64,000 nucleotides of DNA from a bacterium (GTDB lineage: Bacteria > Verrucomicrobiota > Kiritimatiellia > RFP12 > UBA1067). The notes under the pieces were generated by a model. It had not been told where the DNA came from and made no database searches. It saw only the letters and a program-made list of their open reading frames with translations. The translations under genes and the position numbers were made by a program. The number at the start of each line of letters is the position of its first letter. The stretch's first letter is position 1. Location: assembly GCA_037133395.1 (NCBI GenBank), contig JBAXOG010000002.1, positions 26,180 to 90,179 of the forward strand, in the 5' to 3' direction. This document shows positions 11,477 through 55,857 of this stretch, piece after piece.

Positions 11477-11860
11477 GAAGCGAATACGCTTGTACCTTAT
11501 TGCGTGATTGCCTTATTGCCTTGTTTATTGAAAACTGCGGCTCACCAAGATCCGGTCCGGCAGTGGCCGGACCGGACCCTACCTTTCGACGAGGACTTGG
11601 GACACGGGACCTGGGACTTGCAGGAACAGTCGCGTTTTCGTACTAGCGACTCAATCGGTCAACCTTGTCAATGCGGTCAGTCGCGTTAGTCGCTCACTCA
11701 GTCAATCGGTCAAGGGGTCAATCCGTCACAAACCGAGATAGCGCGTAGCGCGCAAGGTAGGTAGAACCGCCTGCCACGCCGTAGCCGTAGTGTAGGCAGC
11801 CAGGCGCTCGTCCCTCCCAAAAGCGACTTCTCCCACCATTCCATTATTCCAGCATTCCAA
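11477..11860. repeat. Mosaic intergenic cluster of REP-like hairpins and 8-bp-period tandem repeats
   Basis: aagcg-aata-cgctt hairpin; tattgc(c/g)t repeats at 11498-11530; 11-bp stem at 11551-11576 with GTAG 5' on the minus strand; gggac repeats; gtcaa repeats; gctcgtccctccc half-REP; cattccaN x3 at 11837-11860. Confidence 0.85.
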
Positions 11861-14808: not shown

Positions 14809-14860
14809 CCGCCTAAAGGCGGAACTCCAAACAAAACACTAACGCACTAACGAACTAACC
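14809..14860. repeat. GGAG-type REP-like hairpin plus three 8-bp tandem repeats (cactaacg)
   Basis: ccgcct-aa-aggcgg-aactcc at 14809-14828; cactaacg/cactaacg/aactaacc at 14837-14860, overlapping the stop codon of the dehydrogenase. Confidence 0.8.
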
Positions 14861-16433: not shown

Positions 16434-16600
16434 AATTGCCTTATTGCCTTATTGCGTTATTGCCTTATTGAATTCGTGTGGTTCGTGTTATTCGATGCTA
16501 AAAAGTTACTCTTTCGTTTATGGCCGGGGTCTCACTGCCAACTGCTACTGCCTACTGCCACCCTGTCCGCCGTAGGCATCGCGAAGGCGGATGTGCCGCC
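16434..16600. repeat. Intra-operon cluster of short tandem repeats and a hairpin
   Basis: tattgcct-type octamer x5 at 16434-16473; ttcgtg x2; actgcc(a/t) repeats; tccgcc..aaggcgga hairpin. Confidence 0.8.
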
Positions 16601-22001: not shown

Positions 22002-22152
22002 CGCAGTTATAGGCAAGGCATCAAAATTCTTAATTGTCCGTACAATATAACAGACCCCTTTATGACCGTCAAGCCGTTATCTAATTATAATTTTGAATCG
22101 CACTTACTCACATTTCTTGACGTACTGTCGTGTTTTTGGCATTCTTTCCGAC

Positions 22153-23529
22153 ATGACACTGACAGCGCCAAAAACCCGATCAAGCAAAACTTTCTTAGGT
22201 CATCCGGTAGGACTGTTCGTCCTGTTCTTCACAGAAATGTGGGAACGCTTCTCATATTACGGCATGCGAGCACTCCTGATGCTCTACATGACTCAGTACC
22301 TGATTAAGGCTGCAGAGACGGGTACGACCATTGTGGGGTTTGCAACCCTCAAAGGCGGACTTGAAGCGGTTTTCGGATCGCTCGCCATTCAGCCATTGGC
22401 CTCGCAAATTTACGGCCTCTACACGGGGTTTGTCTATTTCACTCCGTTCTTCGGAGGCATTCTCGCAGACCGTCTGCTGGGCCAGCGCAAAACCGTGGTG
22501 ATCGGTGGCATCCTGATGGCCACTGGCCAATTCCTCCTCGCCTGTGAGCGGTTCTTCCTCTTGGCGCTTTTGTTCCTGATCATCGGCAATGGCTGTTTCA
22601 AGCCCAACATCTCCACTCAAGTCGGCAACCTTTACGAACATGGCGATCCACGCCGCGATGGCGCGTTTACAATCTTTTATATGGGCATCAATCTGGGGGC
22701 TTTTTTCTCACCCCTTATTTGCGGCACGCTGGGTCAAATCTATGGCTGGCACTATGGGTTCATCGCGGCTGGTGTCGGCATGTTGATCGGATTAGTGGTC
22801 TACTTGACTGGACAGAAATACCTCGCACCTGACAATTTGATGACGAAGGCCGCTGACGCTCACAGTGAAAAGACAGCGCTCACGGCAAAAGAGTGGAAGG
22901 GTATTCTCGGACTGTGCTGTCTCTGCATCCTGAACATCGTCTTCTGGGGGGTATACGAACAACAGGGGAACACGATTCAACTATTTGCTGATAAAAATAC
23001 CGACTGGCATGTCTTCGGCTGGGAAATGCCTTCGACATGGTTTCAATCTCTGAACCCTCTCTTCGTCTTCGCGTTGGCACCCTTCCTCAACATGTTCTGG
23101 GGCAAGCAGGCGAAGCGAGGGAAAGAACCCTCAAGCATTGCTAAAATGGCATTGGGCTGCCTGATGCTCGGCGTCTCCTTCCTCGTGCTGATGTTTGCTA
23201 CCAAAGGCATGGGCGAAACCCATCGCATCACCTTCCTCTGGCTCGTGCTGTGCACCTTCATCTATACCTTGGGCGAGCTCTACCTTTCACCGATCGGCTT
23301 GTCGCTGGTGACCAAGGTTGCGCCAGCCCGTCTGGTGAGCATGCTGATGGGGATGTGGTTCCTCTCCTCATTCTTCGGCAATTACCTGTGCGGATACTTG
23401 GGCACCTATTACGAGAAGATGCCCAAGGATAGCTTCTTCATGATGCTCACCTTGCTCGGCGTCATTGCAGGTGTCGCCATGTTCGCGCTCAAGGGTCCAC
23501 TCAAGAAGGCCATCGGCGAAGATGTGTGA
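22153..23529 (+). CDS. POT/PTR family proton-dependent oligopeptide transporter
   Basis: FTEMWERFSYYGMR (ExxERFxYY), GNGCFKPNIS, FYMGINLGAF, GELYLSP. Confidence 0.95.
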   Translation: MTLTAPKTRSSKTFLGHPVGLFVLFFTEMWERFSYYGMRALLMLYMTQYLIKAAETGTTIVGFATLKGGLEAVFGSLAIQPLASQIYGLYTGFVYFTPFFGGILADRLLGQRKTVVIGGILMATGQFLLACERFFLLALLFLIIGNGCFKPNISTQVGNLYEHGDPRRDGAFTIFYMGINLGAFFSPLICGTLGQIYGWHYGFIAAGVGMLIGLVVYLTGQKYLAPDNLMTKAADAHSEKTALTAKEWKGILGLCCLCILNIVFWGVYEQQGNTIQLFADKNTDWHVFGWEMPSTWFQSLNPLFVFALAPFLNMFWGKQAKRGKEPSSIAKMALGCLMLGVSFLVLMFATKGMGETHRITFLWLVLCTFIYTLGELYLSPIGLSLVTKVAPARLVSMLMGMWFLSSFFGNYLCGYLGTYYEKMPKDSFFMMLTLLGVIAGVAMFALKGPLKKAIGEDV

Positions 23530-23552
23530 GCAAAGGTATACCTGTAACTTCT

Positions 23553-23581
23553 CAGACAGAACTGTTTGCCACACCTTATGT
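23553..23581 (+). repeat. Degenerate copy of the GGCAGACA-GAAA-TGTCTGCC hairpin repeat
   Basis: cagacagaactgtttgccacaccttatgt; 2 mismatches in 29 nt versus the copies at 25228 and 26803. Confidence 0.85.
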
Positions 23582-23645
23582 CAGCAAGTCCGGGTCAGCG
23601 GTACAATCAAGACATTTCTGCCGATAATTCGCTTTTCACATTGCA

Positions 23646-23710
23646 AACGTTCTAAACGTTTGATACCTTAACGTTCTAAACGTTTGACACTTTAACGTTC
23701 TAACTGTTGA
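23646..23710 (+). repeat. 24-bp tandem repeat (about 2.7 copies) upstream of the AAA gene
   Basis: aacgttctaaacgtttgatacctt / aacgttctaaacgtttgacacttt / aacgttctaactgttga. Confidence 0.9.
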
Positions 23711-23720
23711 GGATATTGCC

Positions 23721-25034
23721 ATGGATATACGTGAAGTGAACAGGGCTTTAAGTGCGGGGAAGACCGATGAGCCTGGGGTACTGCCCAAGCTTGCAGAATT
23801 GCGTGAACAACCTTTTGTCATGGATACAGGGTTCAGTATTTCTGAGCTACCGGATCAGCCAGGTGTTTTGATCATCCGAGGTGCGCGTCAATATGGAAAG
23901 AGCACCTGGCTGCAGCAACAGATCGCCCAAACAATCAGACGCTTTGGCCCTGGATCGGCTTTTTATCTTGATGGAGATGAGTTACGCGACAGCGATGCGT
24001 TGTTGGAGGCGGTTCGAGAGCTACTCCCGCTTTATGACTCCAAAACGCCAGTCCGCAGACTCTTCATTGACGAGATCACCGCGATCAAGGATTGGCAAAA
24101 CGGGCTTAAACGTTTACTTGACCGTGGCGAACTCAAGCGAACGCTTGTCGTGACCACGGGCTCAAAAGCCGCAGATCTGAGACATGGTTCGGAACAGCTC
24201 CCCGGACGAAAAGGCACACTTGCGCGTAGCAGCCACCTCTTCACACCCGTGCCCTATTCCGAGTTCAAACGGGTCTGCGCGCCTACGCTAAACCCTGCGG
24301 ATGTACTGCCAGCCTATCTCCTCTCTGGGGGTTCACCTTGCGCGTGCACGTCACTGGCTGTTCAAGGACATCTTCCTGATCACCTTGTCGAAATGGTCAG
24401 GGACTGGGTCTACGGCGAGGTCTCGGCATCTGGCCGGTCACGTCCGATGATGAAGGGGGTCATGGAGTGCCTCATGCGTTTTGCCGGCACGCCTGTTGGT
24501 CAGTCAAAGTTGGCGCGCGAGGCGGGGTTGGCGAATAACACAGTCGCCGCAGGTTATGTTGACCTGCTCTCGGACCTCATGAGCGCAGCCGCCTGCTTTG
24601 CGTGGGACGATGCGCATCGGCGTCCAAACCGGCGGAGGCCTTGCAAATTTCATATCACCAACCTCCTTGTCGCTGCTGTATGGCATCCCTGTCGCCTGCG
24701 GCGGCCAGCCGACATCCGATCCCTCCCCCCCGAAGAACAGGGCGGGTTAATGGAGTGGCTCGTCGCCCAGGAGCTTTTCAGAAGGGCGGCACTTAGAGGA
24801 GACGAATTCCCCGAAGTGATGTCATACTGGAACACGGGCGAGCATGAACTCGACTTCGTCCTGGGACCTGACCGTTTCATCGAGGTCAAAAGGGGTCGCA
24901 CAGGGCCTCTGGACTTCATCTGGTTCCCCAAATGTTTTCCCAAAGGACACCTGACCGTGATCTCCGAGTCTCGCTACGAGACTGACCATATCCGCGGAGT
25001 CACGCTAGACGACTTTCTCCTCGGATTGCCTTAA
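23721..25034 (+). CDS. AAA+ ATPase with DUF4143 / nuclease-like C-terminus
   Basis: Walker A GARQYGKST, Walker B LFIDEI, VTTGS, YLLSGGSP, C-terminal HELDFVL..IEVK (PD-(D/E)XK-like). Confidence 0.88.
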   Translation: MDIREVNRALSAGKTDEPGVLPKLAELREQPFVMDTGFSISELPDQPGVLIIRGARQYGKSTWLQQQIAQTIRRFGPGSAFYLDGDELRDSDALLEAVRELLPLYDSKTPVRRLFIDEITAIKDWQNGLKRLLDRGELKRTLVVTTGSKAADLRHGSEQLPGRKGTLARSSHLFTPVPYSEFKRVCAPTLNPADVLPAYLLSGGSPCACTSLAVQGHLPDHLVEMVRDWVYGEVSASGRSRPMMKGVMECLMRFAGTPVGQSKLAREAGLANNTVAAGYVDLLSDLMSAAACFAWDDAHRRPNRRRPCKFHITNLLVAAVWHPCRLRRPADIRSLPPEEQGGLMEWLVAQELFRRAALRGDEFPEVMSYWNTGEHELDFVLGPDRFIEVKRGRTGPLDFIWFPKCFPKGHLTVISESRYETDHIRGVTLDDFLLGLP

Positions 25035-25095
25035 CACCCTTCTCAAAGCCACCTTCTCGTTCTTCGGCAGATGCCAATGCACTTCCCCCGCCCTC

Positions 25096-25308
25096 CATTC
25101 ACGCATTCACGCATTCGCGCATTTCTCAACCTCTCTCCCCATCCGCGCAAAATCCGCGTCATCCGTAGCTAAAAACGAAGCAACGCGATCTGCACGTGCA
25201 TGTTCATTCCTGTCTGTGCAACAACGGCAGACAGAAATGTCTGCCACACCTTATGTTGGCATCGCTGAGCACTGGAAAATGAACACGTTATTTCATGTGT
25301 CCAATGTC
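25096..25308 (+). repeat. Composite repeat unit, copy A: cattcNcg octamers plus a ~150-bp segment with a GAAA-loop hairpin
   Basis: Octamers at 25096-25127; aatccgcgtcatccg; ggcagacagaaatgtctgcc at 25226-25245; tail to catgtgtccaatgtc matches copy B. Confidence 0.92.
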
Positions 25309-25315
25309 GTCTAGA

Positions 25316-26473
25316 TCATTGGTTTAAAATTCCAAGAGCCTCTTGGTGCTTGGCTTGGATGAATTTTTCCAGTTTGTCCTTCGAGGGTAAATTCACTGCG
25401 TATTGGGAGACAAAGAGTTGGTTGTCCATGCTGGCGGTGGCGTATTCCACCAGTGCATGGTCTTTGTCGGTACAGAGCAACAGCCCCACGGGCAAGTTGT
25501 CGCCAGCGGACATCTTATGTCTGCGATACCAGGTGACGTAGGTGTTGAGCTGGCCCAGATGATCATGTTTAAACTCGTCCACCTTCAACTCGACCAGCAC
25601 ATGGCACTTGAGTATGCGGTGGTAAAAGACAAGATCCACAAAACCACGCGTCTTGCCGATGACGATGCTCTTCTGCTGCGCTTCCAGACAGAAGCCGTGG
25701 CCCAGTTCGAGCAGAAATTCCCGCAGGTTCTCCACCAGTGCCGCTTCGAGATCAGTCTCAGAAACCGCATCCTTTGCCCGCAGACCGAGAAACTCAAAGA
25801 TGTAGGGATCACGAATGGCTAGTTTCGGTTCTGCTGTCTCAACACCCTTCTTCACCATCGCCGCCAGCTTCTCCTTGTCCTTTGACAAACCCGAACGCTC
25901 GAAATAGAGCGTAGCGATCTGACGCTTCAATGCCCGCACTGACCAATTGCCGCGAATGCATTCGATCTCGTAGAAGGCTCGTTTGAGCGGGTCGTCGAGA
26001 TCAACAATGAGTTCGATATGACTGTATGAAAGTCGATTGATCAATTGCTCAACCGCCACGCCTAATTGTGGGGACGCTGTCCCCACTTTTCGCACAGGCA
26101 CGGGTATAGCTGGAAATTGTGGGGACAGTGTACCCACAATTCCCGGATAGAGTCGCCAGAATCTTAAATAACGGTAAAGTTGTCGGCGGTTGCTGTTGGA
26201 AACTCTCAGCTCTGTGAGCTGATCCGCTAACGCATCTAGTAGCCCGTCCCCATACTTTGCCCGGTCTGCTCCGTTCAATTCGTAGTGGTGAATATAGGCC
26301 CCGATAGTCCAGTTTCGCAGCGTCAACGTAACATTGACAACACGAGTGCCCTGAACAGTACAGTACTCGTCAACTTGCTGGATCGCCTTCACAAGCGCGG
26401 CGAAATCCAATTGAGTGCTGCTGTCCTTCGTGGTACTGCGTTTCTTAACAATGGCATTCTTCTTAATTGGCAT
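25316..26473 (-). CDS. DUF1016 / YhcG-like PD-(D/E)XK nuclease-domain protein
   Basis: LRNWTIGAYI, LSYSH, WSVRALKRQI, IRDPYIFEFLGL, FLLELGHGF, VDLVFYHRILKCHVLVELK, GQLNTY. Confidence 0.93.
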   Translation of the reverse strand: MPIKKNAIVKKRSTTKDSSTQLDFAALVKAIQQVDEYCTVQGTRVVNVTLTLRNWTIGAYIHHYELNGADRAKYGDGLLDALADQLTELRVSNSNRRQLYRYLRFWRLYPGIVGTLSPQFPAIPVPVRKVGTASPQLGVAVEQLINRLSYSHIELIVDLDDPLKRAFYEIECIRGNWSVRALKRQIATLYFERSGLSKDKEKLAAMVKKGVETAEPKLAIRDPYIFEFLGLRAKDAVSETDLEAALVENLREFLLELGHGFCLEAQQKSIVIGKTRGFVDLVFYHRILKCHVLVELKVDEFKHDHLGQLNTYVTWYRRHKMSAGDNLPVGLLLCTDKDHALVEYATASMDNQLFVSQYAVNLPSKDKLEKFIQAKHQEALGILNQ

Positions 26474-26623
26474 GGCTTATTCCTCTTTCGTATAACGACC
26501 TAAACTTGATGTTTCTGATAACTGTACTTAAACTTTTGTTTCGAGTCCAGACAAGAGGTTGAAAATTGGGGACGACATTGATATAGAATCATAATCCTGC
26601 CGGTAACTTCAAAAGAATTTCAT

Positions 26624-26883
26624 TATTGCGTTATTGCTCGAAGCGAATACGCTTGTTCCTTCAGCGTTAAGCGTTTCACGCATTCCCGCATTCGCGCATT
26701 CCCGCATTCGCGCATTCGAGCATTCCCGCAAATCCACGTCATCCGCACCTAAAAACAAAACGACACGGGTTGCACGTGCATGTTCCTGTCTGTGCACAAC
26801 GGCAGACAGAAATGTCTGCCACACCTTATGTTGGCATCGCCGAGCACTGGAAAATTACCACGTTATTTCATGTGTCCAATGTC
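26624..26883 (+). repeat. Composite repeat unit, copy B
   Basis: tattgc x2; gaagcgaatacgcttgt; cattc(c/g)cg x6 at 26681-26728; hairpin at 26801-26820; near-identical to 25151-25308. Confidence 0.92.
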
Positions 26884-27084
26884 AAGTGCGCCTCCTTTGT
26901 CTTCTGCTATTTCGGGAACCACTCCAACAGTTTATTAACTACCCGATCATGACCCTTCCGGTTCTCTATGAGAACCTTGTTTGGAGTGTTACCTTATTTT
27001 AAGTTTTTGAAGCGATCATTATTTGGTAGTTAGCACACGCAACTCCGAAGAACGGGTCACGAACCGCCCCCGAAGCCTTTTGCA

Positions 27085-28176
27085 TTGACGGAAGATTGGA
27101 AAGACTGGGTGATGCGGATTGAAGACGAAACCCGAGGAGATATAGATGGACGCCTCGTAAACCTGAGAGGCGAGATCCTCCAGATTGGCAATGCTTACAA
27201 CAATCAGCGTGAACTTATTTTTCGCTATGCCAAGGATAACCACATTGCAACCCTCCCGATTCAACACCCTGACAGCTGGTTTCTTTCAAACATCCCGCAC
27301 GGTCAACCCGTTGAACTCACGGGGATCATCATTCTGACGCAAGCCCCCCGGAAAGGAGAATACCGTACGCCCTTCCCCAATGACTTTCGCCTGCTTTTGA
27401 GAAACGAGGACGATATCCGCTTGTTGCCAGGCGGACCCTGGCTGACCCCAGGCCGAAGGGCAGGACTGCAAAGCGCAGGCATCCTCCTGATTTTCTTGCT
27501 CGCCGCCACAATCACCGTGATGCGCTATCGGATTGTCCGGCAACGGCAACAGCGGCGAGAGGCCGATCTCTTGCAGGAGGAGCGTAAGCGGATTGCCGCG
27601 GATCTGCATGATTCCCTCGAACAGGATATCACGGCCTCCGACATGCAGATGCGAACCGCCCTGATGGCGTTAAAAGCCGTTCCTGAAGAGGCGGCCGACT
27701 GCATTCACTCCGCGCTCTATACGATTGCGGCAGCACGAATCGATTTGCGCAACTCCCTTTGGAATCTCCAGTCGAACGCGGGAGTCCAAAAATCCTTTAC
27801 CGATGCGATGGCCGAGATTTCAAAACGGTTTGACCGCCCTGGCAAACTGAAGGTAGTCTGCACCCTAGACCCCGCAGCGGCCTATCTTCACGAATATCAA
27901 TCCGTCCACTTGCTAGCCATTATCAGCGAGGCGATCACGAATGCTGTCAAACATGGAAACGCCTCGCACATCACGATTGCCACGATACCAACCGGTATCA
28001 CCATCACGGACAACGGAAGCGGGTTTGATCCACAACAGCTTGCCGCCGCTTCGGACGCTGGACACTTTGGCATCATCAACATGCAAGAGCGTGCTGCGAA
28101 AATCAATGCCACTGTTCATATTGTAAGCACACGAGGTCAAGGAACCACGGTATCCATTCGCTTTGCAAACGAATAA
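27085..28176 (+). CDS. NarX/UhpB-type (HisKA_3) sensor histidine kinase, possibly 5'-truncated
   Basis: ERKRIAADLHDSLEQ H-box; EAITNAVKHG; ITDNGSGFD; GHFGIINMQERA; single TM. No signal peptide or clear RBS; in-frame TAG at 27031. Confidence 0.8.
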   Translation: MTEDWKDWVMRIEDETRGDIDGRLVNLRGEILQIGNAYNNQRELIFRYAKDNHIATLPIQHPDSWFLSNIPHGQPVELTGIIILTQAPRKGEYRTPFPNDFRLLLRNEDDIRLLPGGPWLTPGRRAGLQSAGILLIFLLAATITVMRYRIVRQRQQRREADLLQEERKRIAADLHDSLEQDITASDMQMRTALMALKAVPEEAADCIHSALYTIAAARIDLRNSLWNLQSNAGVQKSFTDAMAEISKRFDRPGKLKVVCTLDPAAAYLHEYQSVHLLAIISEAITNAVKHGNASHITIATIPTGITITDNGSGFDPQQLAAASDAGHFGIINMQERAAKINATVHIVSTRGQGTTVSIRFANE

Positions 28177-28197
28177 ACAATACAAAAACTTAATCTT

Positions 28198-28815
28198 ATG
28201 ATCACGCTTCTTATTGTTGACGATCACGCACTTGTCCGAGCTGGACTAAAGGCCTTCTTGCGTTACACACCCGATATGAAGGTGACGCTCGAAGCCGACT
28301 CCGGACTCAAGGCACTTGAACTCTATACAGCTCATAAACCCGATATTGTTCTGCTCGATATCAGAATGAAGGAACCCGACGGCATCGATACCCTTCGGCT
28401 GATTCTCAAGGAAGATCCAGAAGCCAAGGTTATTATGCTGACCACATCCAACACGGAAGAGGATATCTATCAGTCTCTTCAGTCAGGCGCCAAGGGTTAC
28501 ATTATGAAGGACGCATTATCCGATATGATCACGGATGCCATCCGCACGGTCCATGCGGGGGGAACGGTCTTCCCCGAGGATATCCTGAGTCAATTCAAGA
28601 CCCGAGCCGTACAGCACACGCTATCGCGCCGCCAACTCGATGTGCTGGGCCTGATGGCCAAGGGCTTTTCCAACCGCGAGATTGCCCGGCTCACTCAGCT
28701 CAGCGAAAGTACAGTCCTCTCCTACAACACGATCATCTTTGAGAAACTCGGCGTTTCAGGCCGCACCGAAGCTGTCGCCGCCGCCCTTCAGCGCGGCATC
28801 ATCAAGCCGACATAA
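28198..28815 (+). CDS. NarL/LuxR-family response regulator
   Basis: LLIVDDH, LLDIRM, GAKGYIMKD, LSRRQLDVL..GFSNREIA HTH. Confidence 0.95.
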   Translation: MITLLIVDDHALVRAGLKAFLRYTPDMKVTLEADSGLKALELYTAHKPDIVLLDIRMKEPDGIDTLRLILKEDPEAKVIMLTTSNTEEDIYQSLQSGAKGYIMKDALSDMITDAIRTVHAGGTVFPEDILSQFKTRAVQHTLSRRQLDVLGLMAKGFSNREIARLTQLSESTVLSYNTIIFEKLGVSGRTEAVAAALQRGIIKPT

Positions 28816-28825
28816 GAATATTCCA

Positions 28826-28990
28826 CTACCTTCGCATGGTCATGGAGAAGACATACTGGTCGTAGCGATAGACGCCCCGGACAAATTCAATCGGTTGCGA
28901 GGAGCTGCGCTGATAGGTCAGGCGCTCAATGATCAGGACGGTCTCATCAACAGGGACATTCAGCATCTTCGCCTCATCGGCTGTTGCCTT
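28826..28990 (-). pseudogene. Orphan 3' fragment (54 codons + stop) of a GntR/UTRA regulator
   Basis: Aligns without gaps to 41105-41269: 22 mismatches in 165 nt, only 2 amino-acid changes. Confidence 0.92.
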
Positions 28991-30359
28991 CTGGCTGGAT
29001 CATCACGCCTTGTTCCTTGGCGAGGCTGATGGTAATCTTTCCATCCTTCACCTCGACCTCGCTGAGTTTCTTCAAGCCTTCTGGACAGATCTCCGAGACG
29101 ACCGCTTTTTTTACGTTTTCCCATCCGGGAGGAAGCGTCCAGGTCTTGGATTCATACCCCTTGAAACTGTAGGCGACGAGCGTCTTCTCGCACCAGAGCG
29201 CCGGGTAGCACAGGTCATCGCCAGCACGGAGAGGCTGCGAACCCTTCAGCGCGGTTGTATTATTGTCATAATACCAGGGCACCACTCTGTTGCAGAACTG
29301 GGAGACCAGTCCGGGAAGTTTTACGGGATCTTTAACAATCTCCGGCTCGGCGCGCATCGGCGTCCCGCAGTAGAGGCTGGGCGGGATACCCTCCGCTGGC
29401 GCATGATAATCCCACGCCATCGGCTGTAACCCAACAAAAGAATCCACGCGCAGAAACGTACTACCCTCGCTTGTCACGTCAATTCCGTGATCTTTAAAGT
29501 AGCGGTAAATTTTCCGCTGGGCTTCGACCTCCTTCTCCACAGGGATCTTCAGATAGGGGCTGATACTTTTGTTGGCCTTGTCAAGTGTATTGGAGGGATC
29601 TGGAGCGACGCAATGGGGACGCGGCGAGAGTGTGTGGAAAGCGTCGATATGGATGGTTCCTGCCTTCTGGATCGGAAGCATGGCCAGAAGCCCATTGATT
29701 CGCTTTTGAGCCAACCCTGCATCCCACTCCTTTGCATAGCTGATGTAATAGGACTGCGTATCGATACGCGGGGCTTGACCCTTCGGACCCTGGACTTCGC
29801 CCTTGATGAGTACGCCGTTGCTGTCCTTGGCGATAATGTCGTTCGTGAGGTAACTCTCCCACAACGGGCTGTCCGCATACGCGTCGAACATGTTGATGTG
29901 CAGGCTCACGGTCGTGTGATATTTAAACCCTTCGGCCATCAGCCATTTCAGGCTATCAACCGCCGTGGCATCCTGCGGCCTTTTCAATCTCGGATTGACC
30001 ACCGACCAATCCGGGTATTTTGAGTCGTGCCCGTTGTGCTGCCAGCCGACCAGATAGACGATCTTGGGAATTCCGAGGGTGATGGTGTCCAGCCGCTTGA
30101 TAACCTCCAGTGCCTGTTCGACTGTCAGAAAAACTTTACACCCCTCGTTGGCCTGCTTTTCCGCGAGAAATATCTTCATCACGAGGGTCTGGTGATAGGG
30201 CTGTACCCAAGGCCGTTCAGGCTGTCTGGTTTTAGTCCAGTCATAATACTCGCCGGAAAAATCAGCCTCCTTTTGTTCCGGCAGGGTGGCCCGTCCGAAG
30301 GCCACCATGATTACACTCGATACCATAGCAATGATTGCAGACCCAGTTTTTCTGTTCAT
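28974..30359 (-). CDS. Endo-alpha-N-acetylgalactosaminidase-like (GH101-related) glycoside hydrolase
   Basis: Signal peptide; KIVYLVGWQHNGHDSKYP, VSLHINMFDAY, TIHIDAF, GIDVTSE. Confidence 0.65.
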   Translation of the reverse strand: MNRKTGSAIIAMVSSVIMVAFGRATLPEQKEADFSGEYYDWTKTRQPERPWVQPYHQTLVMKIFLAEKQANEGCKVFLTVEQALEVIKRLDTITLGIPKIVYLVGWQHNGHDSKYPDWSVVNPRLKRPQDATAVDSLKWLMAEGFKYHTTVSLHINMFDAYADSPLWESYLTNDIIAKDSNGVLIKGEVQGPKGQAPRIDTQSYYISYAKEWDAGLAQKRINGLLAMLPIQKAGTIHIDAFHTLSPRPHCVAPDPSNTLDKANKSISPYLKIPVEKEVEAQRKIYRYFKDHGIDVTSEGSTFLRVDSFVGLQPMAWDYHAPAEGIPPSLYCGTPMRAEPEIVKDPVKLPGLVSQFCNRVVPWYYDNNTTALKGSQPLRAGDDLCYPALWCEKTLVAYSFKGYESKTWTLPPGWENVKKAVVSEICPEGLKKLSEVEVKDGKITISLAKEQGVMIQPEGNSR

Positions 30360-30442
30360 TTGTTTTTTCTCACTTTTAGTGCGTTCCCTGATTCATACGT
30401 AACGTTTCAATCGATCTCTTACTGAAACGAAAACATGTTGCG

Positions 30443-33400
30443 CTACTTTGACAATCTAATCAGGAGGACCTCATGGGGCTTCACCTCACGGACATATTCC
30501 CTGTCAAAGCGTCCCAGATCCTTGCGCAACCACAGGTCTCGGACATTCCGTTGTCCCTCGATTCCCAGGCAGCTCCAGCGCATCGTGATTGTTTGAGGTT
30601 TGTCGCCCCGATTAAACAAGCCTGCACCAACATCGCCATTCGCCAGGGGCTTCTGCCAAACCTCCATGTCGCCGAACTTATAGGCGCGCCATGCCGGGAT
30701 TCCCAACGGATCCTGGTCTAGGGCAATCGCCTCGGGATTCGTCAGCGTCTCGCGGGTCACCTGATCCATTTCAGCCAGATCGCAGCCGGCAATCAGTGGT
30801 GCACTCAGCAGACACCACAGTGACATCTGCGAGCGATACTCCGTGTCTGTACAACCCGGTCCTTTGGGATCCCCTTTTGCCTTCTTTCCACTTTGCCAAC
30901 TGTTTCCATACAGCCCTGCGAACAGCTGGTCCAAGTCGTTCCAACCGCCGGGACCAGCAAACGCTCCCAGGCACTCATTCTGGTCGACGATGCGCACAAT
31001 TCCGTTGCCAAAATTGCTGTCCACGTCCGTATCCCAGCGATCGATCAAATCGAAGGTCGTCCGCCACATGTGGCCGCCTGACTTCCTGGCCCATGACCAT
31101 GGACGACACTTGCCCCATTCACAGATGTTATAGAGCGTTGGACGATACACAGCCAGAGCCTTGGAAAACTCCGAGTAGAGCGAATGCGCCGGGGCGGGAT
31201 TTGGGTCGTCGTTCCAGTCCACCTTGAGATAATCCACTCCCCATTCCGCAAAGCGTTTCGCGTCCTGCTCATAGTGCCCGTAGCTGCCAGGGAAGCGCCC
31301 GCAGGTGAGCGATTTGGCATCGGTATACATACCGAATTTCAAGCCTTTGTAATGCACATAATCGGCCAGCGCTTTCATACCTTGCGGAAACTTGTTCGGG
31401 TCCGGCTGGAGATTGCCGTCCTTATCCCGGCTGCGCATCGCCCACCAATCGTCGATGATGACGTATTGGTAACCCGCGTCTTTCATTCCAGAGTTCACCA
31501 TGGCGTCGGCGTTACGCCTGACGACGGCCTCATTCACTCCAGTGCTAAAACCGCACCAGCTGTTCCAGCCCATGGGGGGTGTCTTTGCCAGACCCTGGTT
31601 GTCGCCGAAGCGCTTCGGATCAGGGAGTGGAATGGCAACGGACCACAACTGCGCGCCAGCCCAAGCCGCCAGTGTATTGCCATCGCCGGTCACGAGGAGC
31701 TTCATTTCACGAACGCCTGCCAATGGCACGCGGCAGCCGATGGGGCGATGAGGATTCAAGCCCGCGGCCCCGTGATGAATGTTGCCAGTGTCATAAGCGA
31801 GTTGCCCATCGGTGAAGACTTGGAATCGGACGGCGCCCGCCCGGCCGTGAAGGTCAAGTCCCACCCACGCTTGGAACCACTGGTACCGATTCTCCAGCGC
31901 GTAAGTCAGTTCCGTATCCTGGGTGACTCCTAGACCGCTGGCGTACTCCATGCCGCCGATGTTGATCGTCTTGCCCGACAGATTGATGCTGCCTTTCGCC
32001 ACGACCGGCTTGAGTTCTGACAACCAGATCGAATCCCGCGTGTCCACAATAGGTTTATCTCCCAGCAACTTCGCCAGCGTAGGTTCGACTGCCTGCACCC
32101 AAGCTTCGGCGCCGGCGGCGTTTGGATGAATCAAATCCGGAATCAGATCGGCGTTGATCGTGCCCTCCGAACGGAGGAACACACGCCCCACGTCGAGCCA
32201 GAAGACATGTTTGTTGTCGGCGAGTTGGGCGGTCTGTTCGCCGCCTCGGCGCAGATATTCCCGCGCTTTGTCCGACCGGTTGTAGATGCGTCCCTGATGT
32301 CCGGCATTGACATGATCGTTGCGACCGCCCGCAGGGAACGTGCGCAGAATGAGAATCTTGCTGGCCGGATGACGCTGGCGAATCAGGTCCACGATGGCCT
32401 TGGTGCCGGTGAAGACCTGTTCACCGGTATGGATGGTCTTGTAATACTGGTCGTCGGTGTTGTTAGTGCCGATCAGCAACATGAACACCTTGGGCGACCG
32501 TTTGAAATCCAGTTCACCATTGAGCAGATTCCAGAGAATATTCTCCGTCCGGAAGCCACTGTAGCCGAGGTTTAGTGCATGACGCGGCGCAAAATGTCTG
32601 TCCCACACTGTGCGGAGCGATGCCAACTCACCACCCATTTCCCCCAGCGAATGCGTAATCGAATCGCCAACCAGCACGAGGTCATAGTCGCCGGACTTCA
32701 CTGCAGCAACCTTCTGCTCATGCCTGGCGACCGCGCCCGGATCCGTGTTTCTTGTCGGAAAATCGGAGTCCCCCGGTTGCTGGCCCGGTTGGGCGGCAAC
32801 CGTCAGTGCGGTCGCCGGTTTCGGGAGCACGACTTCGATGGTTTCACCTGGGCTGATGAGCTTATCCTGCAGGATTTTATCCTGCTGTAAAATCTGGACG
32901 TGGAGTTTCTGCCCGGCCCGCGTCACCACGATGTCGACGTCATTGCCGAACGCTTGGATATGGCGGAGCGCCATCGAGGGCCAACTGTCCGGGAGCCGGG
33001 GCGTGCAGCGGAAACGATCAAGTCCAGTGGGCAGGATACCGAACATCCCCTCGGTGAAAATCCGGCAATAGAGGCCGCTCTCGGAGGCGAGGTGCCCCTG
33101 CCCGCCTTCAGGATAAGCCTCAACAGCATAAGGGACATGCTCGCCCAGCAGGCGCCGGCGGGAGTATTGGCCGAGGAAGGCGAGCGCCTTTGCCGTCTCA
33201 CCCGCCTGGAACACAGCCCGCAGGGCGTAGAGCGTCGAGCGATCCCAGAAGACCTTGTCGCCCGCCTGCGACGCCAAGCCGTCGGCAGTCCACATCCTGG
33301 GAGAGAACAGGGCGTCGATGGTGCCCTGCTTGCGCTCGAAAAGCCCCATCGAGAGCGGCATGCAGATCCAGGAACGCAGGACCGCGTTGCCGTCGTAGTA

Positions 33401-34828
33401 CCGATAGGTGTCGAACCCTCCGACTGTGGCGCCGAAATGCGCCTCGATGGCTTTCTCCAGAGCCTGCGCGCGTTGGCCGTATTCAGCCGCCTCCGTGTCT
33501 TTGCCCAACGCACGGCCGAGATCAGCAGCCGACCGGAGTCCGCCGTAGGCCAGGCTGGCCGTGGTCAGGTTGGCCGTGCCTGCGGGCAGGCGACCTTCGA
33601 GTTCATCCGTGTCGGAGGCAATCACACCATCGGTCGTTTGTTTCCGTTTACAATATTCCAACGACCACGCGATGCCTTTCCAAAGTTCCTTGGCAACCGC
33701 CTCATCGCCCAAGGCCAGGCAGAAGCGTGAAGCCCCGTAGGCATACATGGCGGCATCGCCCCGGTCGAACGGTCCCCAGATGTCGGTCCCCTCCGCAACG
33801 ATTGAACACGGGATACGCTGGTAGTCGGACTTCATGAACGACAGGTATTGGCGGTAGGCATTGAGCGATGCCGCGTTGCCGCCCGCCTCACCCAGAAACG
33901 GGAAGAACGGCCCGGCGTATTCCACGTTGTCGTTGCACCACGTCGCGGCGTAATAGCGCAGATTGCCGGGCGCCAGCATCATGCCCCCTCGGGTGTCGTT
34001 GATCGCTTCGGCCACCCGCCACTTGGCAAAGGCGAAGGCGCGGTTCAGCAGGAGGTCCGGTGTTTCAAGACACAAGGTTTCATTGAGCCGGGCAATGAAG
34101 GCGCGGCGCTGCTTTTCCTCAGACGCGCCGTCGAGCGCCTCGGGCGGCGCATCGGCGAGACGCGCGGAAAAAAGAACGGAGAACGACAGGACGTTGCCGG
34201 CGGCAAGGCTTGTGCTGACGGGCGCGTCGGTAGAGACCGACAGGACATTCGTCCCGTAAGGGCCTGTTTTCTCGAACGCCAACGCGAGCGGCGCGACACC
34301 CACCACAACCGCCTTTTCACCCGTGTTCTTCAGCGTCCACCGGTCAACTGCTGCATACTTCTCAAACGCGGGGAAGGTCACGCGCGTAATTGCCAGAGGC
34401 CCTGCCTGTCCGACAAACGTCAGCGTCCCGTCGAGCCGGACTTCCGAAATCCTGAAAGGTCCAGCAGGCCGTGCGTCAACCGTGATGTGCGGCTCAGCCT
34501 CGGTCGCAAAGTGCCGGATCAGGCTGCCGTGTGTGTCGTTGGGGAAAATCCGCAAGGACGGCCAGACCACATCCCGCTCAAGTTTCAGCACGCCGGCCGC
34601 ATCGAGCGAATACCAGACCTTCTGCCCGACCCTGCGTCCGCCCTGCTCGATAAAATCCTTGTGCGGGAGTTTCGTACCCTCGACCTTCCAGACCGTGGCG
34701 ACACCTTCGCCAAAGGTCCATCGGTCAGCCCGAGACAGAGAATTGCTTTCGACAGCACAGAGTACGCCAGCCGTCAAAACGCAGGCGCCCATGATGGTGG
34801 TCATGCGAGCTTTGAGTGAATGCTTCAT
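30443..34828 (-). CDS. Multi-catalytic fusion: six-hairpin glycosidase + SGNH/GDSL esterase + NPCBM + GH27 alpha-galactosidase
   Basis: YYAATWCND/DTDELEGR (six-hairpin); VGDSITH, GTNN, DLIHP (SGNH); FQAWVGLD..VRFQV (NPCBM); TPPMGWNSW, IIDDWW, DYLKVDW, WNDLDQL (GH27). Confidence 0.85.
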   Translation of the reverse strand: MKHSLKARMTTIMGACVLTAGVLCAVESNSLSRADRWTFGEGVATVWKVEGTKLPHKDFIEQGGRRVGQKVWYSLDAAGVLKLERDVVWPSLRIFPNDTHGSLIRHFATEAEPHITVDARPAGPFRISEVRLDGTLTFVGQAGPLAITRVTFPAFEKYAAVDRWTLKNTGEKAVVVGVAPLALAFEKTGPYGTNVLSVSTDAPVSTSLAAGNVLSFSVLFSARLADAPPEALDGASEEKQRRAFIARLNETLCLETPDLLLNRAFAFAKWRVAEAINDTRGGMMLAPGNLRYYAATWCNDNVEYAGPFFPFLGEAGGNAASLNAYRQYLSFMKSDYQRIPCSIVAEGTDIWGPFDRGDAAMYAYGASRFCLALGDEAVAKELWKGIAWSLEYCKRKQTTDGVIASDTDELEGRLPAGTANLTTASLAYGGLRSAADLGRALGKDTEAAEYGQRAQALEKAIEAHFGATVGGFDTYRYYDGNAVLRSWICMPLSMGLFERKQGTIDALFSPRMWTADGLASQAGDKVFWDRSTLYALRAVFQAGETAKALAFLGQYSRRRLLGEHVPYAVEAYPEGGQGHLASESGLYCRIFTEGMFGILPTGLDRFRCTPRLPDSWPSMALRHIQAFGNDVDIVVTRAGQKLHVQILQQDKILQDKLISPGETIEVVLPKPATALTVAAQPGQQPGDSDFPTRNTDPGAVARHEQKVAAVKSGDYDLVLVGDSITHSLGEMGGELASLRTVWDRHFAPRHALNLGYSGFRTENILWNLLNGELDFKRSPKVFMLLIGTNNTDDQYYKTIHTGEQVFTGTKAIVDLIRQRHPASKILILRTFPAGGRNDHVNAGHQGRIYNRSDKAREYLRRGGEQTAQLADNKHVFWLDVGRVFLRSEGTINADLIPDLIHPNAAGAEAWVQAVEPTLAKLLGDKPIVDTRDSIWLSELKPVVAKGSINLSGKTINIGGMEYASGLGVTQDTELTYALENRYQWFQAWVGLDLHGRAGAVRFQVFTDGQLAYDTGNIHHGAAGLNPHRPIGCRVPLAGVREMKLLVTGDGNTLAAWAGAQLWSVAIPLPDPKRFGDNQGLAKTPPMGWNSWCGFSTGVNEAVVRRNADAMVNSGMKDAGYQYVIIDDWWAMRSRDKDGNLQPDPNKFPQGMKALADYVHYKGLKFGMYTDAKSLTCGRFPGSYGHYEQDAKRFAEWGVDYLKVDWNDDPNPAPAHSLYSEFSKALAVYRPTLYNICEWGKCRPWSWARKSGGHMWRTTFDLIDRWDTDVDSNFGNGIVRIVDQNECLGAFAGPGGWNDLDQLFAGLYGNSWQSGKKAKGDPKGPGCTDTEYRSQMSLWCLLSAPLIAGCDLAEMDQVTRETLTNPEAIALDQDPLGIPAWRAYKFGDMEVWQKPLANGDVGAGLFNRGDKPQTITMRWSCLGIEGQRNVRDLWLRKDLGRFDREYVREVKPHEVLLIRLSK

Positions 34829-34843
34829 AAAATTAAATTAAGA

Positions 34844-34871
34844 GTCCGCGCCCCTCCCTGGAGGCGCGGAC
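34844..34871 (-). terminator. Intergenic hairpin (terminator-like or REP-derived) between the surface protein and the GH fusion
   Basis: gtccgcgcc/ggcgcggac 9-bp stem followed on the minus strand by a T-rich tract. Confidence 0.5.
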
Positions 34872-34884
34872 CTTGCGTGTGACG

Positions 34885-38445: not shown

Positions 38446-38460
38446 TCCTGATTCCTTCTT

Positions 38461-39567: not shown

Positions 39568-39580
39568 AATGGCACCAAAT

Positions 39581-39630
39581 TATATTAATCGGTTAATATA
39601 GTCAAACCAAAATATTAACCGATTAATATT
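39581..39630. promoter_or_regulatory. Pair of LacI-type operators in inverted orientation, 30 bp apart
   Basis: tatattaatcggttaatata at 39581-39600 and aatattaaccgattaatatt at 39611-39630; central CG; between the divergent lacI-family and MFS genes. Confidence 0.85.
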
Positions 39631-39710
39631 TTTTTTACTCTTCACGGTTTGACCTTGTCAAATCCCGGCGGTGTCGTCATACTTACCGAACAACTTCCGA
39701 GGGCTCTGAA

Positions 39711-40970: not shown

Positions 40971-40987
40971 GGGACAGACATGGTATG

Positions 40988-41034
40988 CATAAGGTGTGGC
41001 AGTCATTCCTGTCTGCCCTTGATTGCACAGACAG
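40988..41034 (-). repeat. Inverted copy of the GGCAGACA hairpin repeat
   Basis: Reverse complement reads ctgtctgtgcaatcaagggcagacaggaatgactgccacaccttatg. Confidence 0.88.
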
Positions 41035-41104
41035 AGATCGCCGTATTCAGCAGAGCCCGTGCTTGAAACGAGAGCGAAGCGTCAATGCCTGCGCCACCAT
41101 GCAC

Positions 41105-41881
41105 CTATCGGCGCATGGTCATGGAGAAGACATACTGGTCGTAGCGATAGACACCGCGGACAAACTCAATCGGCTGTGCGGAACTACGCTGATAGGTCAA
41201 GCGTTCAATAATCAAGACTGTCTCATCGACGGGGATGTTCAGCATCTTCGCCTCATCAGCAGTTGCCTTGCCTGCACGAATGGACTCTACACCGTGGCTG
41301 ATGTGAATGCCATACTTGTTCTCAAGAATCTGATAGAGCGAATGTGAAAAGTCCTCTTCCTCCGAAATACCCAGGCTTTCCGGCAATTCCGAAGTCAGAT
41401 ACACCAGCGGAAAACACTGGTTATGTCCGCGCAAACGTCTCAGGAGCAATGTGCGCTCACCTTTCTTCAACCCAAGCTGTTTGGCAAGCATCGAGGCTGG
41501 CTGATGATATTTCACATCGATGATTTCCGTAAGCGCCGTCTTTCCCTTGATTTGCAACTCTTCCGTGAAACTCTTCATACGGCCAAGATCTTCGGTCAGA
41601 GGCGTGCCAATCACGCGGGTCCCCAGCGCAGCACGACGTTCAATGATGCCTTTGTTGATCAGACTGTCATACGCTTTGCGCACCGTCGCCCGGCTCAAGC
41701 CAAAGCGTTCGACCAATTCGAGCTCGCCCGGCAAGAGACTGCCAATCGTACACCGCTGACGAATGCGATCATGCAATGCATTTTCGAGTTGCTTCCACAA
41801 GGGGGCTTCCGACAGAATTGAAAAGTCCAATGCTTCGCCAGGTTTGAAAAGAACGACTGGTTTTTCTCGTGTCCGTGCCAT
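41105..41881 (-). CDS. GntR-family (HutC/UTRA) transcriptional regulator
   Basis: LPGELELVERFGLSRATVRKA wHTH; UTRA HSLYQILE..YGI, IEFVRGVYRYD. Confidence 0.95.
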   Translation of the reverse strand: MARTREKPVVLFKPGEALDFSILSEAPLWKQLENALHDRIRQRCTIGSLLPGELELVERFGLSRATVRKAYDSLINKGIIERRAALGTRVIGTPLTEDLGRMKSFTEELQIKGKTALTEIIDVKYHQPASMLAKQLGLKKGERTLLLRRLRGHNQCFPLVYLTSELPESLGISEEEDFSHSLYQILENKYGIHISHGVESIRAGKATADEAKMLNIPVDETVLIIERLTYQRSSAQPIEFVRGVYRYDQYVFSMTMRR

Positions 41882-55535: not shown

Positions 55536-55857
55536 AAGCCACCCGTGTTGTTTAATATGTAAACTATAATACACATTTTAACTTACGATGGCAACCACAA
55601 ATAAAATATTACGCTCTTATTATATTTCTGTTACGATCAGTCTCAATTGCCAGAAGTCACAGCTCTCACGTTCTAATCTAAATTTAATATATTCCTCTGC
55701 TGAAAATCACACTCTTCCTAGTTCCCCCTCCCTCTGTAAAATTCCTTCCAACGCATCTAAGTCTCAAATTGAAATGCAGGGGTGAGCATGATATAGTATG
55801 GCTCATTCACTTGTTATTTGTATAACTATGGGGTTAAATAAAAAATCAGGAGCAGGC

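What the first reader, a model, noticed from the sequence alone, without database searches (positions are those of the whole stretch)
23553..26883. Repeat-delimited cassette array of defence-like genes (integron-like layout without attC or integrase)
Seen: three same-orientation copies of the GGCAGACA-GAAA-TGTCTGCC-ACACCTTATG hairpin (23553, 25226, 26801) delimit two genes, an AAA-DUF4143 and an oppositely oriented DUF1016 nuclease. The two copies around DUF1016 are ~150-bp near-identical direct repeats, each preceded by cattcNcg octamers. A fourth, inverted copy sits at 40988, at the edge of the putative island. Inference: single-gene cassettes mobilised by recombination or ssDNA hairpin cleavage at this repeat, possibly RAYT-mediated.
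Basis: partly seen in the sequence, partly recalled or inferred. Interest (0 to 1): 0.75.

Follow-up and report, generated by a model that had tools for sequence, protein, structure and literature searches.

The report
Palindromic repeats in a defence-gene hotspot
The hairpin is one arm of a small palindromic REP/REPIN-like repeat scattered through an uncultured freshwater bacterium, and four decayed copies lie between separately acquired defence-type genes in a strain-variable hotspot, with no sign that they act as integron-like recombination sites.

Summary
Four copies share an invariant TGCCACACCTTATG, 8-nt tandem arrays precede two of them, and the genes between them are AAA_14-DUF4143 and DUF1016/YhcG. 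The integron-like mechanism is not supported.

The hairpin is the right arm of a ~70-nt palindromic doublet: ..AAGGTGGCGCAGACATTTCTGTCTGTGC-AATAAAC-GGCAGACAGAAATGTCTGCCACACCTT.. Complete copies occur in other metagenome contigs. In the source samples the arm is about 20 times deeper than its flanks. It usually lies just 3' of a gene and joins other short modules into BIME-like mosaics.

In a relative, the window's POT and GntR genes are 2 bp apart. Window 23530-41104 is therefore strain-variable inserted DNA, and copies 1 and 4 sit at its edges.

Both "cassette" genes are self-contained units with their own upstream regions. Each occurs in several other genomic contexts, nearly always without the repeat. 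Their homology borders lie 54-200 nt from the hairpins.

The two copies around DUF1016 are 97% identical over only 88 nt, and 73% upstream of that. No ORF of 90 aa or more in the window encodes a recombinase or transposase.

Best reading: a REP/BIME-like repeat family in an accretion hotspot of defence-candidate genes. At most the repeats give portable homology for general recombination.

The parts
23533..23586 (+). Copy 1: decayed palindromic repeat directly 3' of the POT stop (23529). Right arm and tail are at 23553-23580; the left arm is almost gone.
   Evidence: nhmmer E 1.7e-10; no stable fold
23646..25037 (+). AAA_14-DUF4143 unit (PADLOC PDC-S01). It comprises a 75-nt upstream region with AACGTT operator-like 24-nt tandem repeats (23646-23703) and the ORF 23721-25034.
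   Evidence: homology to L029/L030/L031 spans 23646-25024; an RNA contig of a variant leaves the window sequence at 25037
25088..25308 (+). Copy 2 mosaic. Parts in order: 8-nt array 25096-25123, module A, degenerate left arm 25185-25220, right arm 25226-25245, tail to 25255, module B 25256-25308.
25312..26596 (-). DUF1016/YhcG PD-(D/E)XK nuclease unit (PADLOC PDC-S02). It comprises the ORF 25316-26473 and 123 nt upstream. It is multi-copy in the source samples.
26597..26649 (.). Filler between the DUF1016 unit and copy 3. It holds the 8-bp target (26618-26625, TTTCATTA) of an IS1595-family insertion present in some populations.
26650..26883 (+). Copy 3 mosaic. Parts in order: 8-nt array 26673-26730, module A, degenerate left arm, right arm 26801-26820, tail to 26830, module B 26831-26883.
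26954..28815 (+). Histidine kinase (27085-28176) plus LuxR-type response regulator (28198-28815), a variable two-gene module. It is absent from run X9. A 90.6% copy in L008/L010 is followed by a complete palindromic repeat plus module B.
28824..28990 (-). Orphan 167-nt 3' fragment of a GntR gene. It is 91.0% identical to L003's GntR and 86.7% to the window's own GntR. It marks the ancestral POT|GntR junction.
   Evidence: (D2)
40988..41104 (-). Copy 4: palindromic repeat with a ~55-nt insertion in the left-arm loop, starting right after the GntR stop (41105). It is the inner edge of the inserted region.
   Evidence: L009 89%; z -2.98
41105..41881 (-). Full-length GntR/UTRA regulator. In relative L003 its ortholog ends 2 bp from the POT stop.

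Best explanation
The repeat is a decaying member of a dispersed palindromic extragenic repeat family. It resembles a REPIN, that is, a doublet of two inverted REPs. It is embedded in BIME-like mosaics with 8-nt tandem arrays and two other short modules.

A complete element is about 70 nt: CATAGG/AAGGTG-GCGCAGACA-TTTC-TGTCTGTGC, a 7-10 nt spacer, then GGCAGACA-GAAA-TGTCTGCC-ACACCTTATG. As a single strand it folds into one long hairpin. It usually lies just downstream of a gene, in that gene's orientation.

The window's four copies sit in 17.5 kb of strain-variable DNA between the convergent POT and GntR genes. Self-contained accessory modules have accreted there one by one: AAA-DUF4143, DUF1016, a kinase-regulator pair and a glycan-use island.

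Inferred, not shown:
- The elements are spread in trans by an enzyme encoded elsewhere (RAYT-like).
- In this locus they serve as 3' hairpins and as stretches of portable homology. The 88-nt segment at 97% identity includes a 45-nt perfect run.
- General recombination, either homologous or homology-facilitated illegitimate, joined DUF1016 between two different mosaic copies through that homology. It could delete DUF1016 again the same way.

They are not site-specific cassette recombination sites.
For: Structure:
- Complete doublets in L007 and L010 fold with z -5.9 and -8.0. The window copies are decayed: z -1.1, -1.6, +0.2 and -3.0.

Dispersal:
- There are nine further copies in seven other contexts in metagenome contigs, and similarity ends sharply at CCTTATG.
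- In run X1 the right arm has depth 255-283 against 13 for its flanks. Module B is at 30-70 and module A at 20-27, so the modules have different copy numbers.
- Modules recombine. L014 has array + A + repeat without B. L010 has a complete repeat + B without A.

Hotspot:
- In L003 the POT and GntR stops are 2 bp apart.
- L014 has POT, then the mosaic, then an Mrr restriction gene. L004 has other small genes and a BrnT/BrnA pair.
- X9 lacks the kinase-regulator pair. An IS1595-family element is polymorphic at 26618-26625.

Units independent of the repeat:
- DUF1016 homology covers 25312-26596. The other contexts are beside cydB, beside mreB, between MTHFR and GH3, and inside an Eco57I/SNF2 operon.
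- AAA homology covers 23646-25024 in three other contexts.

The two copies around DUF1016 are not a fresh duplication:
- Left halves are 72.7% identical. Copy 2's left half is closer to L014 (77.5%). Right halves are 96.6% identical.

Other flanking duplications:
- The cydB-linked DUF1016 is flanked by a 99-nt, 92% duplication of the cydB 3' end. The glycan island is flanked by a 167-nt GntR duplication whose orphan copy is closer to L003 than to the resident gene.
- Both fit recombination of diverged donor DNA rather than a hairpin site.

No recombinase in the window.
Against: - Copy number (about 20 depth-equivalents) is low for a REP family and may be shared among several related genomes.
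- No RAYT or other cognate enzyme was seen, because only 64 kb of the genome is available.
- Mutated copies break stem pairs rather than compensate, so selection for the structure is not shown.
- The repeat is over-represented beside TA, restriction and defence-candidate genes, at 4-5 of 8 independent loci. One other DUF1016 copy (L024) has a diverged repeat 40 nt downstream. A specific link to accessory-gene movement is therefore not excluded.
- The recombination route that placed DUF1016 is inferred from one locus.
Confidence: 0.6

Rival explanations
1. Integron-like cassette system. Single-gene cassettes are excised and inserted by site-specific or single-strand hairpin recombination at the repeat, using a recombinase or HUH enzyme encoded elsewhere.
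For: - Accessory single-gene modules are separated by same-orientation copies.
- The region is variable between strains.
- Conserved-to-variable breakpoints in L014, L009, L012 and copies 1 and 4 fall right after CCTTATG.
- Neighbours are enriched in TA and restriction genes.
- A 45-nt identical run in copies 2 and 3 covers the hairpin.
Against: - The same DUF1016 and AAA units occur elsewhere without the repeat. Their borders are 54-200 nt from the hairpins.
- DUF1016 is in the opposite orientation.
- There is no attC-like R/L box architecture and no intI, attI, tyrosine, serine or HUH recombinase in 64 kb.
- The repeat also follows ordinary genes such as GDSL and SASA esterases and a MurD-like gene.
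- The breakpoints at CCTTATG are equally explained by that being the end of an independently inserted ~70-nt element.
Confidence: 0.12
2. The DUF1016 nuclease gene is itself a selfish mobile gene. Its insertion duplicates 100-220 bp of whatever target it enters, for example through widely staggered nicks and fill-in. On this view copies 2 and 3 are a long target duplication of one pre-existing mosaic.
For: - Two independent DUF1016 loci are flanked by long direct repeats of local sequence: 99 nt of the cydB 3' end in L016/L017/L023, and the mosaic in the window.
- The inserted lengths are similar, about 1335 and 1356 bp.
- The unit is multi-copy at 93% identity in the same samples.
Against: - Three other DUF1016 contexts (L018, L024, L025) have no flanking duplication.
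- Copies 2 and 3 differ greatly in their left halves (72.7%), and copy 2's left half is closer to L014. They were therefore two different family members, not one duplicated target.
- The extra 'filler' lies on opposite sides of the unit in the two loci.
- No transposase-like activity is known for this family. Papers describe it as a predicted endonuclease riding on mobile elements and restriction-modification loci.
Confidence: 0.1
3. The repeats are purely local regulatory or terminator sequences, such as 3' hairpins or bidirectional terminators, kept similar by gene conversion. They have no mobility and play no part in rearrangement.
For: - Seven of eight copies with a resolvable upstream gene lie 3' of it in the same orientation.
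- In L011 the left arm is a textbook hairpin followed by a T-run.
- Module A on the minus strand gives hairpin + T-run hits downstream of DUF1016, and in L014 downstream of Mrr.
Against: - Terminator-like hits are no more frequent than in shuffles: 5 found against 3.9 expected.
- The right arm is followed by ACACCTTATG, not a T-run.
- Identical ~70-nt units with sharp ends in unrelated contexts, and depth about 20 times the flanks, point to copy-and-paste spread.
- No RNA coverage of the hairpin was found, though depth was very low.
Confidence: 0.1

Closest known systems
REP / REPIN elements with RAYT transposases (Bertels & Rainey 2011, PMC3116915; PMC3337134)
   Same: It is a short extragenic palindrome occurring as an inverted doublet with a short spacer. 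The doublet folds into one long hairpin. It is dispersed at many sites, decays into single arms, and mostly lies 3' of genes.
   Different: Copy number seems low, at about 20 depth-equivalents. Each arm is itself a perfect 8+4+8 hairpin. The spacer is only 7-10 nt. No RAYT gene has been seen. The host is an uncultured freshwater bacterium of unsettled phylum rather than a proteobacterium. Copies cluster inside variable DNA.
BIMEs (bacterial interspersed mosaic elements) of enterobacteria
   Same: The palindromic units combine with other short conserved modules in varying arrangements. Examples are array + A + repeat + B in the window, array + A + repeat in L014, and repeat + B in L010.
   Different: The modules are unrelated in sequence to those of enterobacteria. 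One module class is an 8-nt tandem array. No binding proteins such as IHF or gyrase have been tested.
Integron gene cassettes with attC sites
   Same: Promoter-proximal single genes are separated by imperfect palindromes in a variable array rich in defence and TA-type genes.
   Different: There is no intI, attI or Pc and no attC box architecture. One gene is in the opposite orientation. Each gene has its own upstream region. The same genes occur elsewhere without the repeat.
MITE-flanked mobilisation units and pdif (XerC/D) modules
   Same: Small repeats bracket accessory genes that differ between strains.
   Different: No target-site duplications were found around the elements or the bracketed segment. 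The arms are 8-4-8, not the 11-6-11 of dif sites. Brackets in the array are direct rather than alternating.
STRR heptamer arrays of heterocystous cyanobacteria (recalled from my own knowledge, not checked here)
   Same: They are tandem arrays of a 7-8 nt unit in many intergenic regions, with different unit sequences at different loci.
   Different: Here the period is 8. The arrays abut the palindromic element or a small AAGCGAATACGCTT hairpin. The lineage is different.

Membership tests
Integron cassette array | Adjacent integron integrase gene (intI, tyrosine recombinase) with attI and Pc | tested here: not met
   Pfam scans of all ORFs of 90 aa or more in the 64 kb found no Phage_integrase or other recombinase.
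Integron cassette array | attC sites: R''-L''/L'-R' imperfect palindrome with a GTTRRRY core at the cassette boundary | tested here: not met
   The repeat is 8-4-8 plus the ACACCTTATG tail. The sequence after the tail, GTTGGCA, does not fit GTTRRRY. Unit borders are 54-200 nt from the hairpins.
Integron cassette array | Cassettes mostly promoterless, co-oriented, and carrying their own attC when found elsewhere | tested here: not met
   DUF1016 is on the opposite strand. Both genes carry conserved upstream regions. Their other copies lack the repeat, except for a diverged copy near L024.
REP / REPIN | Short (20-40 nt) imperfect palindrome located outside genes | tested here: met
   All four window copies and the nine metagenome copies are intergenic. 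The arm GGCAGACA-GAAA-TGTCTGCC is a 20-nt palindrome.
REP / REPIN | Two inverted REPs forming a hairpin-capable doublet | tested here: met
   L007 and L010 fold into a 24-26 bp stem at -22 and -25.5 kcal/mol, z -5.9 and -8.0. The window copies are decayed.
REP / REPIN | Many copies per genome | tested here: inconclusive
   Depth of the arm is about 20 times its flanks in four runs. This is community depth, not a genome count. The scan of species-representative genomes found no real copy.
REP / REPIN | Cognate single-copy RAYT (Y1 HUH) gene flanked by the same REPs | not testable with these tools
   Only 64 kb of the genome is held and none is present there. None was seen in the loci fetched.
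BIME-like mosaic | Palindromic units combined with other conserved short motifs in variable arrangements | tested here: met
   Module composition differs between copies 2/3, L014, L010 and L009. Module depths differ.
MITE | Terminal inverted repeats plus target-site duplication, related to a resident IS | tested here: inconclusive
   Terminal inverted repeats are present (CATAAGG..CCTTATG). No consistent duplication was seen at four complete or near-complete copies. The ends are unlike the IS1595-family element found in L005.
pdif / Xer modules | 28-nt sites of 11-6-11 architecture, alternating in orientation around modules | tested here: not met
   The architecture is 8-4-8. Copies 1-3 are in direct orientation.
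Defence candidates PDC-S01 / PDC-S02 (PADLOC) | Profile match of the protein | tested here: met
   AAA-DUF4143 matches PDC-S01 at 2e-18. DUF1016 matches PDC-S02 at 1e-117. These are candidate defence genes named by genomic association. Function was not tested.

The most novel reading that the evidence does not exclude
The palindromic repeat, with its invariant TGCCACACCTTATG tail, is a portable junction site at which accessory defence and TA modules are inserted and exchanged in this lineage. That would be an integrase-less functional analogue of an integron array. The enzyme would be encoded in trans and is possibly a PD-(D/E)XK nuclease such as DUF1016 itself. This would also explain the long flanking duplications at two DUF1016 loci.
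Probability: 0.1. Interest if true: 0.75.

Novelty: new member of a known kind. Interest (0 to 1): 0.3.

Why it matters
As it stands, this is a new REP/BIME-type repeat family in an uncultured freshwater bacterium, lying in a hotspot where defence-candidate genes come and go. It is useful for annotation and gives one more example of small repeats marking variable regions.

It would matter more if the repeats, or the DUF1016 nuclease, proved to drive the exchange of defence modules. How single defence genes move without visible mobile-element machinery is still an open question.

Two leads deserve a test on complete genomes. Defence and TA genes recur beside the repeat. Two DUF1016 insertions are flanked by 100-220 bp duplications of local sequence.

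Tried and rejected
- **Genome scan.** I scanned one genome per species for CAGACAG-N(4-12)-TGCCACACCTTATG. It returned only two matches in unrelated taxa, apparently by chance.
- **Exact-protein look-ups.** Look-ups of two window proteins found nothing. I had to work through homologues instead.
- **RNA families and tRNAs.** Rfam gave no hit at gathering threshold or at E up to 1. No tRNA or tmRNA gene could serve as an att site.
- **Sigma-54 promoter in module B.** I rejected this by eye: the GG..GC spacing is one base short.
- **Terminator scan.** Hits were no more frequent than in shuffles.
- **Empty-site or circle evidence.** The 'skips 1575/1565' joints lie inside the periodic 8-nt arrays, with only 21-25 letters on one side. 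I treat them as alignment ambiguity. The 'opposite strands' joints are the inverted copy 4. Logan contigs break at the repeats, so linkage across them cannot be read.
- **Low-share runs X8-X11.** Mostly low depth rather than missing cassettes, except for the missing kinase-regulator pair in X9.
- **Metatranscriptomes.** Only a variant AAA gene and the 8-nt arrays were covered. Nothing lay on the hairpin or on DUF1016.
- **E. coli yhcG.** No repeat features are annotated beside it.
- **Compensatory changes in the stem.** Variant copies break pairs, so there is no support for a selected structure.
- **Phylum.** Not settled. Named relatives of different genes point to Verrucomicrobiota, Lentisphaeria, Planctomycetota and Acidobacteriota.
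Full report
**Observation**

- The 20-mer GGCAGACAGAAATGTCTGCC occurs exactly at 25226 and 26801 (+). A 2-mismatch copy lies at 40998-41017 (-). Shuffles give none.
- The tail TGCCACACCTTATG is exact in all four copies, including 23567.
- The 23553 copy has 4 mismatches in the hairpin and folds no better than shuffles.
- The copies around DUF1016 share 88 nt at 97% (25221-25308 / 26796-26883). A further ~130 nt upstream is only 72.7% identical, with indels.
- Period-8 arrays (CATTCNCG) precede both copies.
- Genes in and around the region:
  - POT transporter 22093-23529 (+)
  - AAA_14-DUF4143 23721-25034 (+)
  - DUF1016_N/YhcG_C 25316-26473 (-)
  - histidine kinase 27085-28176 and LuxR-type regulator 28198-28815 (+)
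  - glycoside hydrolases, a PATR protein, LacI and an MFS transporter
  - GntR 41105-41881 (-), then a sulfatase

**What the repeat is**

- A metagenome scan with a degenerate pattern gave nine real extra copies in seven other contexts.
- In L007 and L008/L010 the element is complete: a left arm ..AAGGTGGCGCAGACATTTCTGTCTGTGC, a 7-10 nt spacer, then the right arm GGCAGACAGAAATGTCTGCCACACCTT.. The left arm is the reverse complement of the right arm.
- As single-stranded DNA these complete copies form one 24-26 bp hairpin, with z -5.9 and -8.0.
- The window copies are decayed or altered in different ways:
  - Copies 2 and 3, and L014, have a degenerate left arm.
  - Copy 4 and L009 carry a ~55-nt insertion in the left-arm loop.
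  - Copy 1 keeps little more than the right arm.
- Similarity between contexts ends within 0-2 nt of CCTTATG in L014, L009, L012 and copies 1 and 4. That is the element's own terminus.
- Other short modules join it in varying combinations:
  - 8-nt arrays
  - a ~65-nt module A (copies 2 and 3, L014)
  - a 53-nt module B (copies 2 and 3, L008/L010)
- In the four deepest runs the right arm is about 20 times deeper than its flanks (255-283 against 13 in X1). Module B is 3-5 times deeper and module A about twice.
- Where an upstream gene can be read, the element usually lies just 3' of it in the same orientation. Examples are POT, GntR, the regulator in L010, AAA-DUF4143 and a hydrolase in L012.
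- There is no Rfam family or tRNA in the region.

**The locus is a variable hotspot**

- In relative L003 (POT 88% nt) the POT stop and the GntR stop are 2 bp apart.
- In the window, POT is followed by 23530-28823 (the 'array'). Next comes an orphan 167-nt GntR 3' fragment at 28824-28990, which begins exactly at the ancestral junction. Then come 12 kb of glycan-use genes, copy 4 and the full GntR.
- The orphan fragment is 91.0% identical to L003 but only 86.7% to the resident GntR. The two copies therefore come from different lineages. This is what recombination of diverged incoming DNA would leave.
- Other relatives differ again:
  - L014 has POT, then array + A + repeat, then an Mrr-type restriction gene.
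  - L004 has unrelated small genes and a BrnT/BrnA pair.
- Run X9 holds 22.7-27.0 kb but not the kinase-regulator pair.
- A 1-kb IS1595-family element with the 8-bp duplication TTTCATTA sits at 26618-26625 in L005 and in runs X9 and X11.

**The 'cassettes' do not depend on the repeat**

- DUF1016 relatives at 80-94% nt identity share only window 25312-26596, that is, the ORF plus 123 nt upstream. They occur beside cydB (L016/L017/L023), beside mreB (L024), between MTHFR and GH3 genes (L018), and inside an Eco57I/SNF2 restriction operon (L025).
- A second copy at 93% identity has the same depth as the window genome in the source samples.
- AAA-DUF4143 relatives at 72-75% nt share 23646-25024. 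This includes conserved AACGTT operator-like repeats. They occur in three further contexts.
- None of these carries the mosaic. Only L024 has a diverged repeat, 40 nt downstream of the gene.
- Unit borders lie 54-200 nt from the hairpins.
- No ORF of 90 aa or more in the window encodes an integrase, HUH or DDE enzyme.
- Both genes are defence candidates by profile: PDC-S01, and PDC-S02 at 1e-117. Papers describe DUF1016 as an untested endonuclease riding on mobile elements and restriction-modification loci.

**How copies 2 and 3 came to flank DUF1016**

- They are not one freshly duplicated target. Their left halves are 72.7% identical, and copy 2's left half is nearer to L014 (77.5%). Their right halves are 96.6% identical, with a 45-nt perfect run.
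- The cydB-linked DUF1016 is likewise flanked by a 99-nt, 92% duplication of the cydB 3' end, with no repeat involved.
- The simplest common account is inference only. Diverged donor DNA carrying the gene entered by recombination through a short homologous stretch. That leaves a donor copy and a recipient copy of the stretch on either side.
- A self-mobilising DUF1016 that makes long target duplications is a weaker alternative. Three other DUF1016 loci lack any duplication.

**Comparison and verdict**

- In form the element is closest to REP/REPIN doublets and BIME mosaics (PMC3116915 and PMC3337134, found). Membership is unproven because no RAYT could be looked for.
- It fails the defining tests of integrons, pdif modules and, so far, MITEs.
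The integron-like mechanism does not.
- One lead remains. The repeat lies beside TA, restriction or defence-candidate genes at 4-5 of 8 independent loci. This leaves about a one-in-ten chance that it plays a direct part in module exchange.
- Interest is modest. This is a new member of a known kind, with two leads worth testing on complete genomes.

Noticed in passing
window 11495-11522, 11651-11728, 11833-11859, 14837-14859, 16435-16494, 25096-25123, 26675-26730; also L009 ~800-835, L014 ~390-430, L018 ~11170-11200: Tandem arrays of 8-nt units occur in many intergenic regions of this genome and its relatives. The unit sequence differs from locus to locus: CATTCGCG, ATTGCCTT, TCAATCGG, CACTAACG, GTTTCAAG and others. 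The CATTCGCG array reaches depth 360 in one run, with many different flanks, and appears in metatranscriptome contigs. This resembles cyanobacterial STRR heptamer arrays. No function is known.
   Followed up: partly
L016 36-134 and 1468-1566; L017; L023 4902-5000 and 6334-6432: A 93-94% identical DUF1016 unit beside cydB is flanked by a 99-nt direct duplication (92% identical) of the cydB 3' end. This parallels the repeat-flanked copy in the window, yet three other DUF1016 loci have no such duplication.
   Followed up: partly
window 28824-28990 vs 41105-41269: An orphan 167-nt GntR 3' fragment begins exactly at the ancestral POT|GntR junction. It is closer to relative L003 (91.0%) than to the resident GntR (86.7%). 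This suggests the 12-kb glycan-use island arrived with a foreign GntR copy.
   Followed up: partly
window 26618-26625; L005 641-1640: A ~1.0-kb IS1595-family insertion with an 8-bp duplication TTTCATTA and ends CTGGGGTATC.. is present in L005 and in runs X9 and X11. It is absent from the window.
   Followed up: yes
window 23646-23703; L029, L030, L031 upstream regions: A 24-nt tandem repeat with AACGTT palindromes (TTGTCAACGTT..AACGTTTGG..TAACGTT..AACGTTGA) lies upstream of the AAA-DUF4143 gene. It is conserved in distant homologous units. It is probably an operator/promoter that travels with the gene.
   Followed up: partly
window 26064-26142 (inside the DUF1016 ORF); L016 587-661; L024 1584-1664: An internal palindromic direct repeat (AATTGTGGGGAC..GTCCCCAC, twice, 51 nt apart) lies within the DUF1016 coding region and is conserved in homologues. 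Several metagenome contigs break or jump there.
   Followed up: no
window 55798-57686: A NotI-like restriction endonuclease gene is followed by a D12-class adenine methyltransferase (PADLOC PD-Lambda-5_B / MTase_II). This is a second defence locus 15 kb from the hotspot, with no repeat copy beside it.
   Followed up: partly
window 26954-28815; L008 4689-5106; L010 12163-12580: A 90.6% copy of the response-regulator gene lies in a different context (next to a GDSL esterase) and is followed by a complete palindromic doublet plus module B. It has the same depth as the window genome in several runs, so it may be a paralogous kinase-regulator module in the same genome.
   Followed up: partly
window 11479-11500 and 26641-26662: A small hairpin module GAAGCGAATACGCTTGT precedes 8-nt arrays at two unrelated intergenic sites. 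It is another piece of the mosaic repertoire.
   Followed up: no
window 63326-63354 / 63457-63485: A 29-nt inverted repeat (93% complementary, arms 102 nt apart) lies in the intergenic region before a TrmB-like methyltransferase gene. It is unrelated in sequence to the repeat studied.
   Followed up: no
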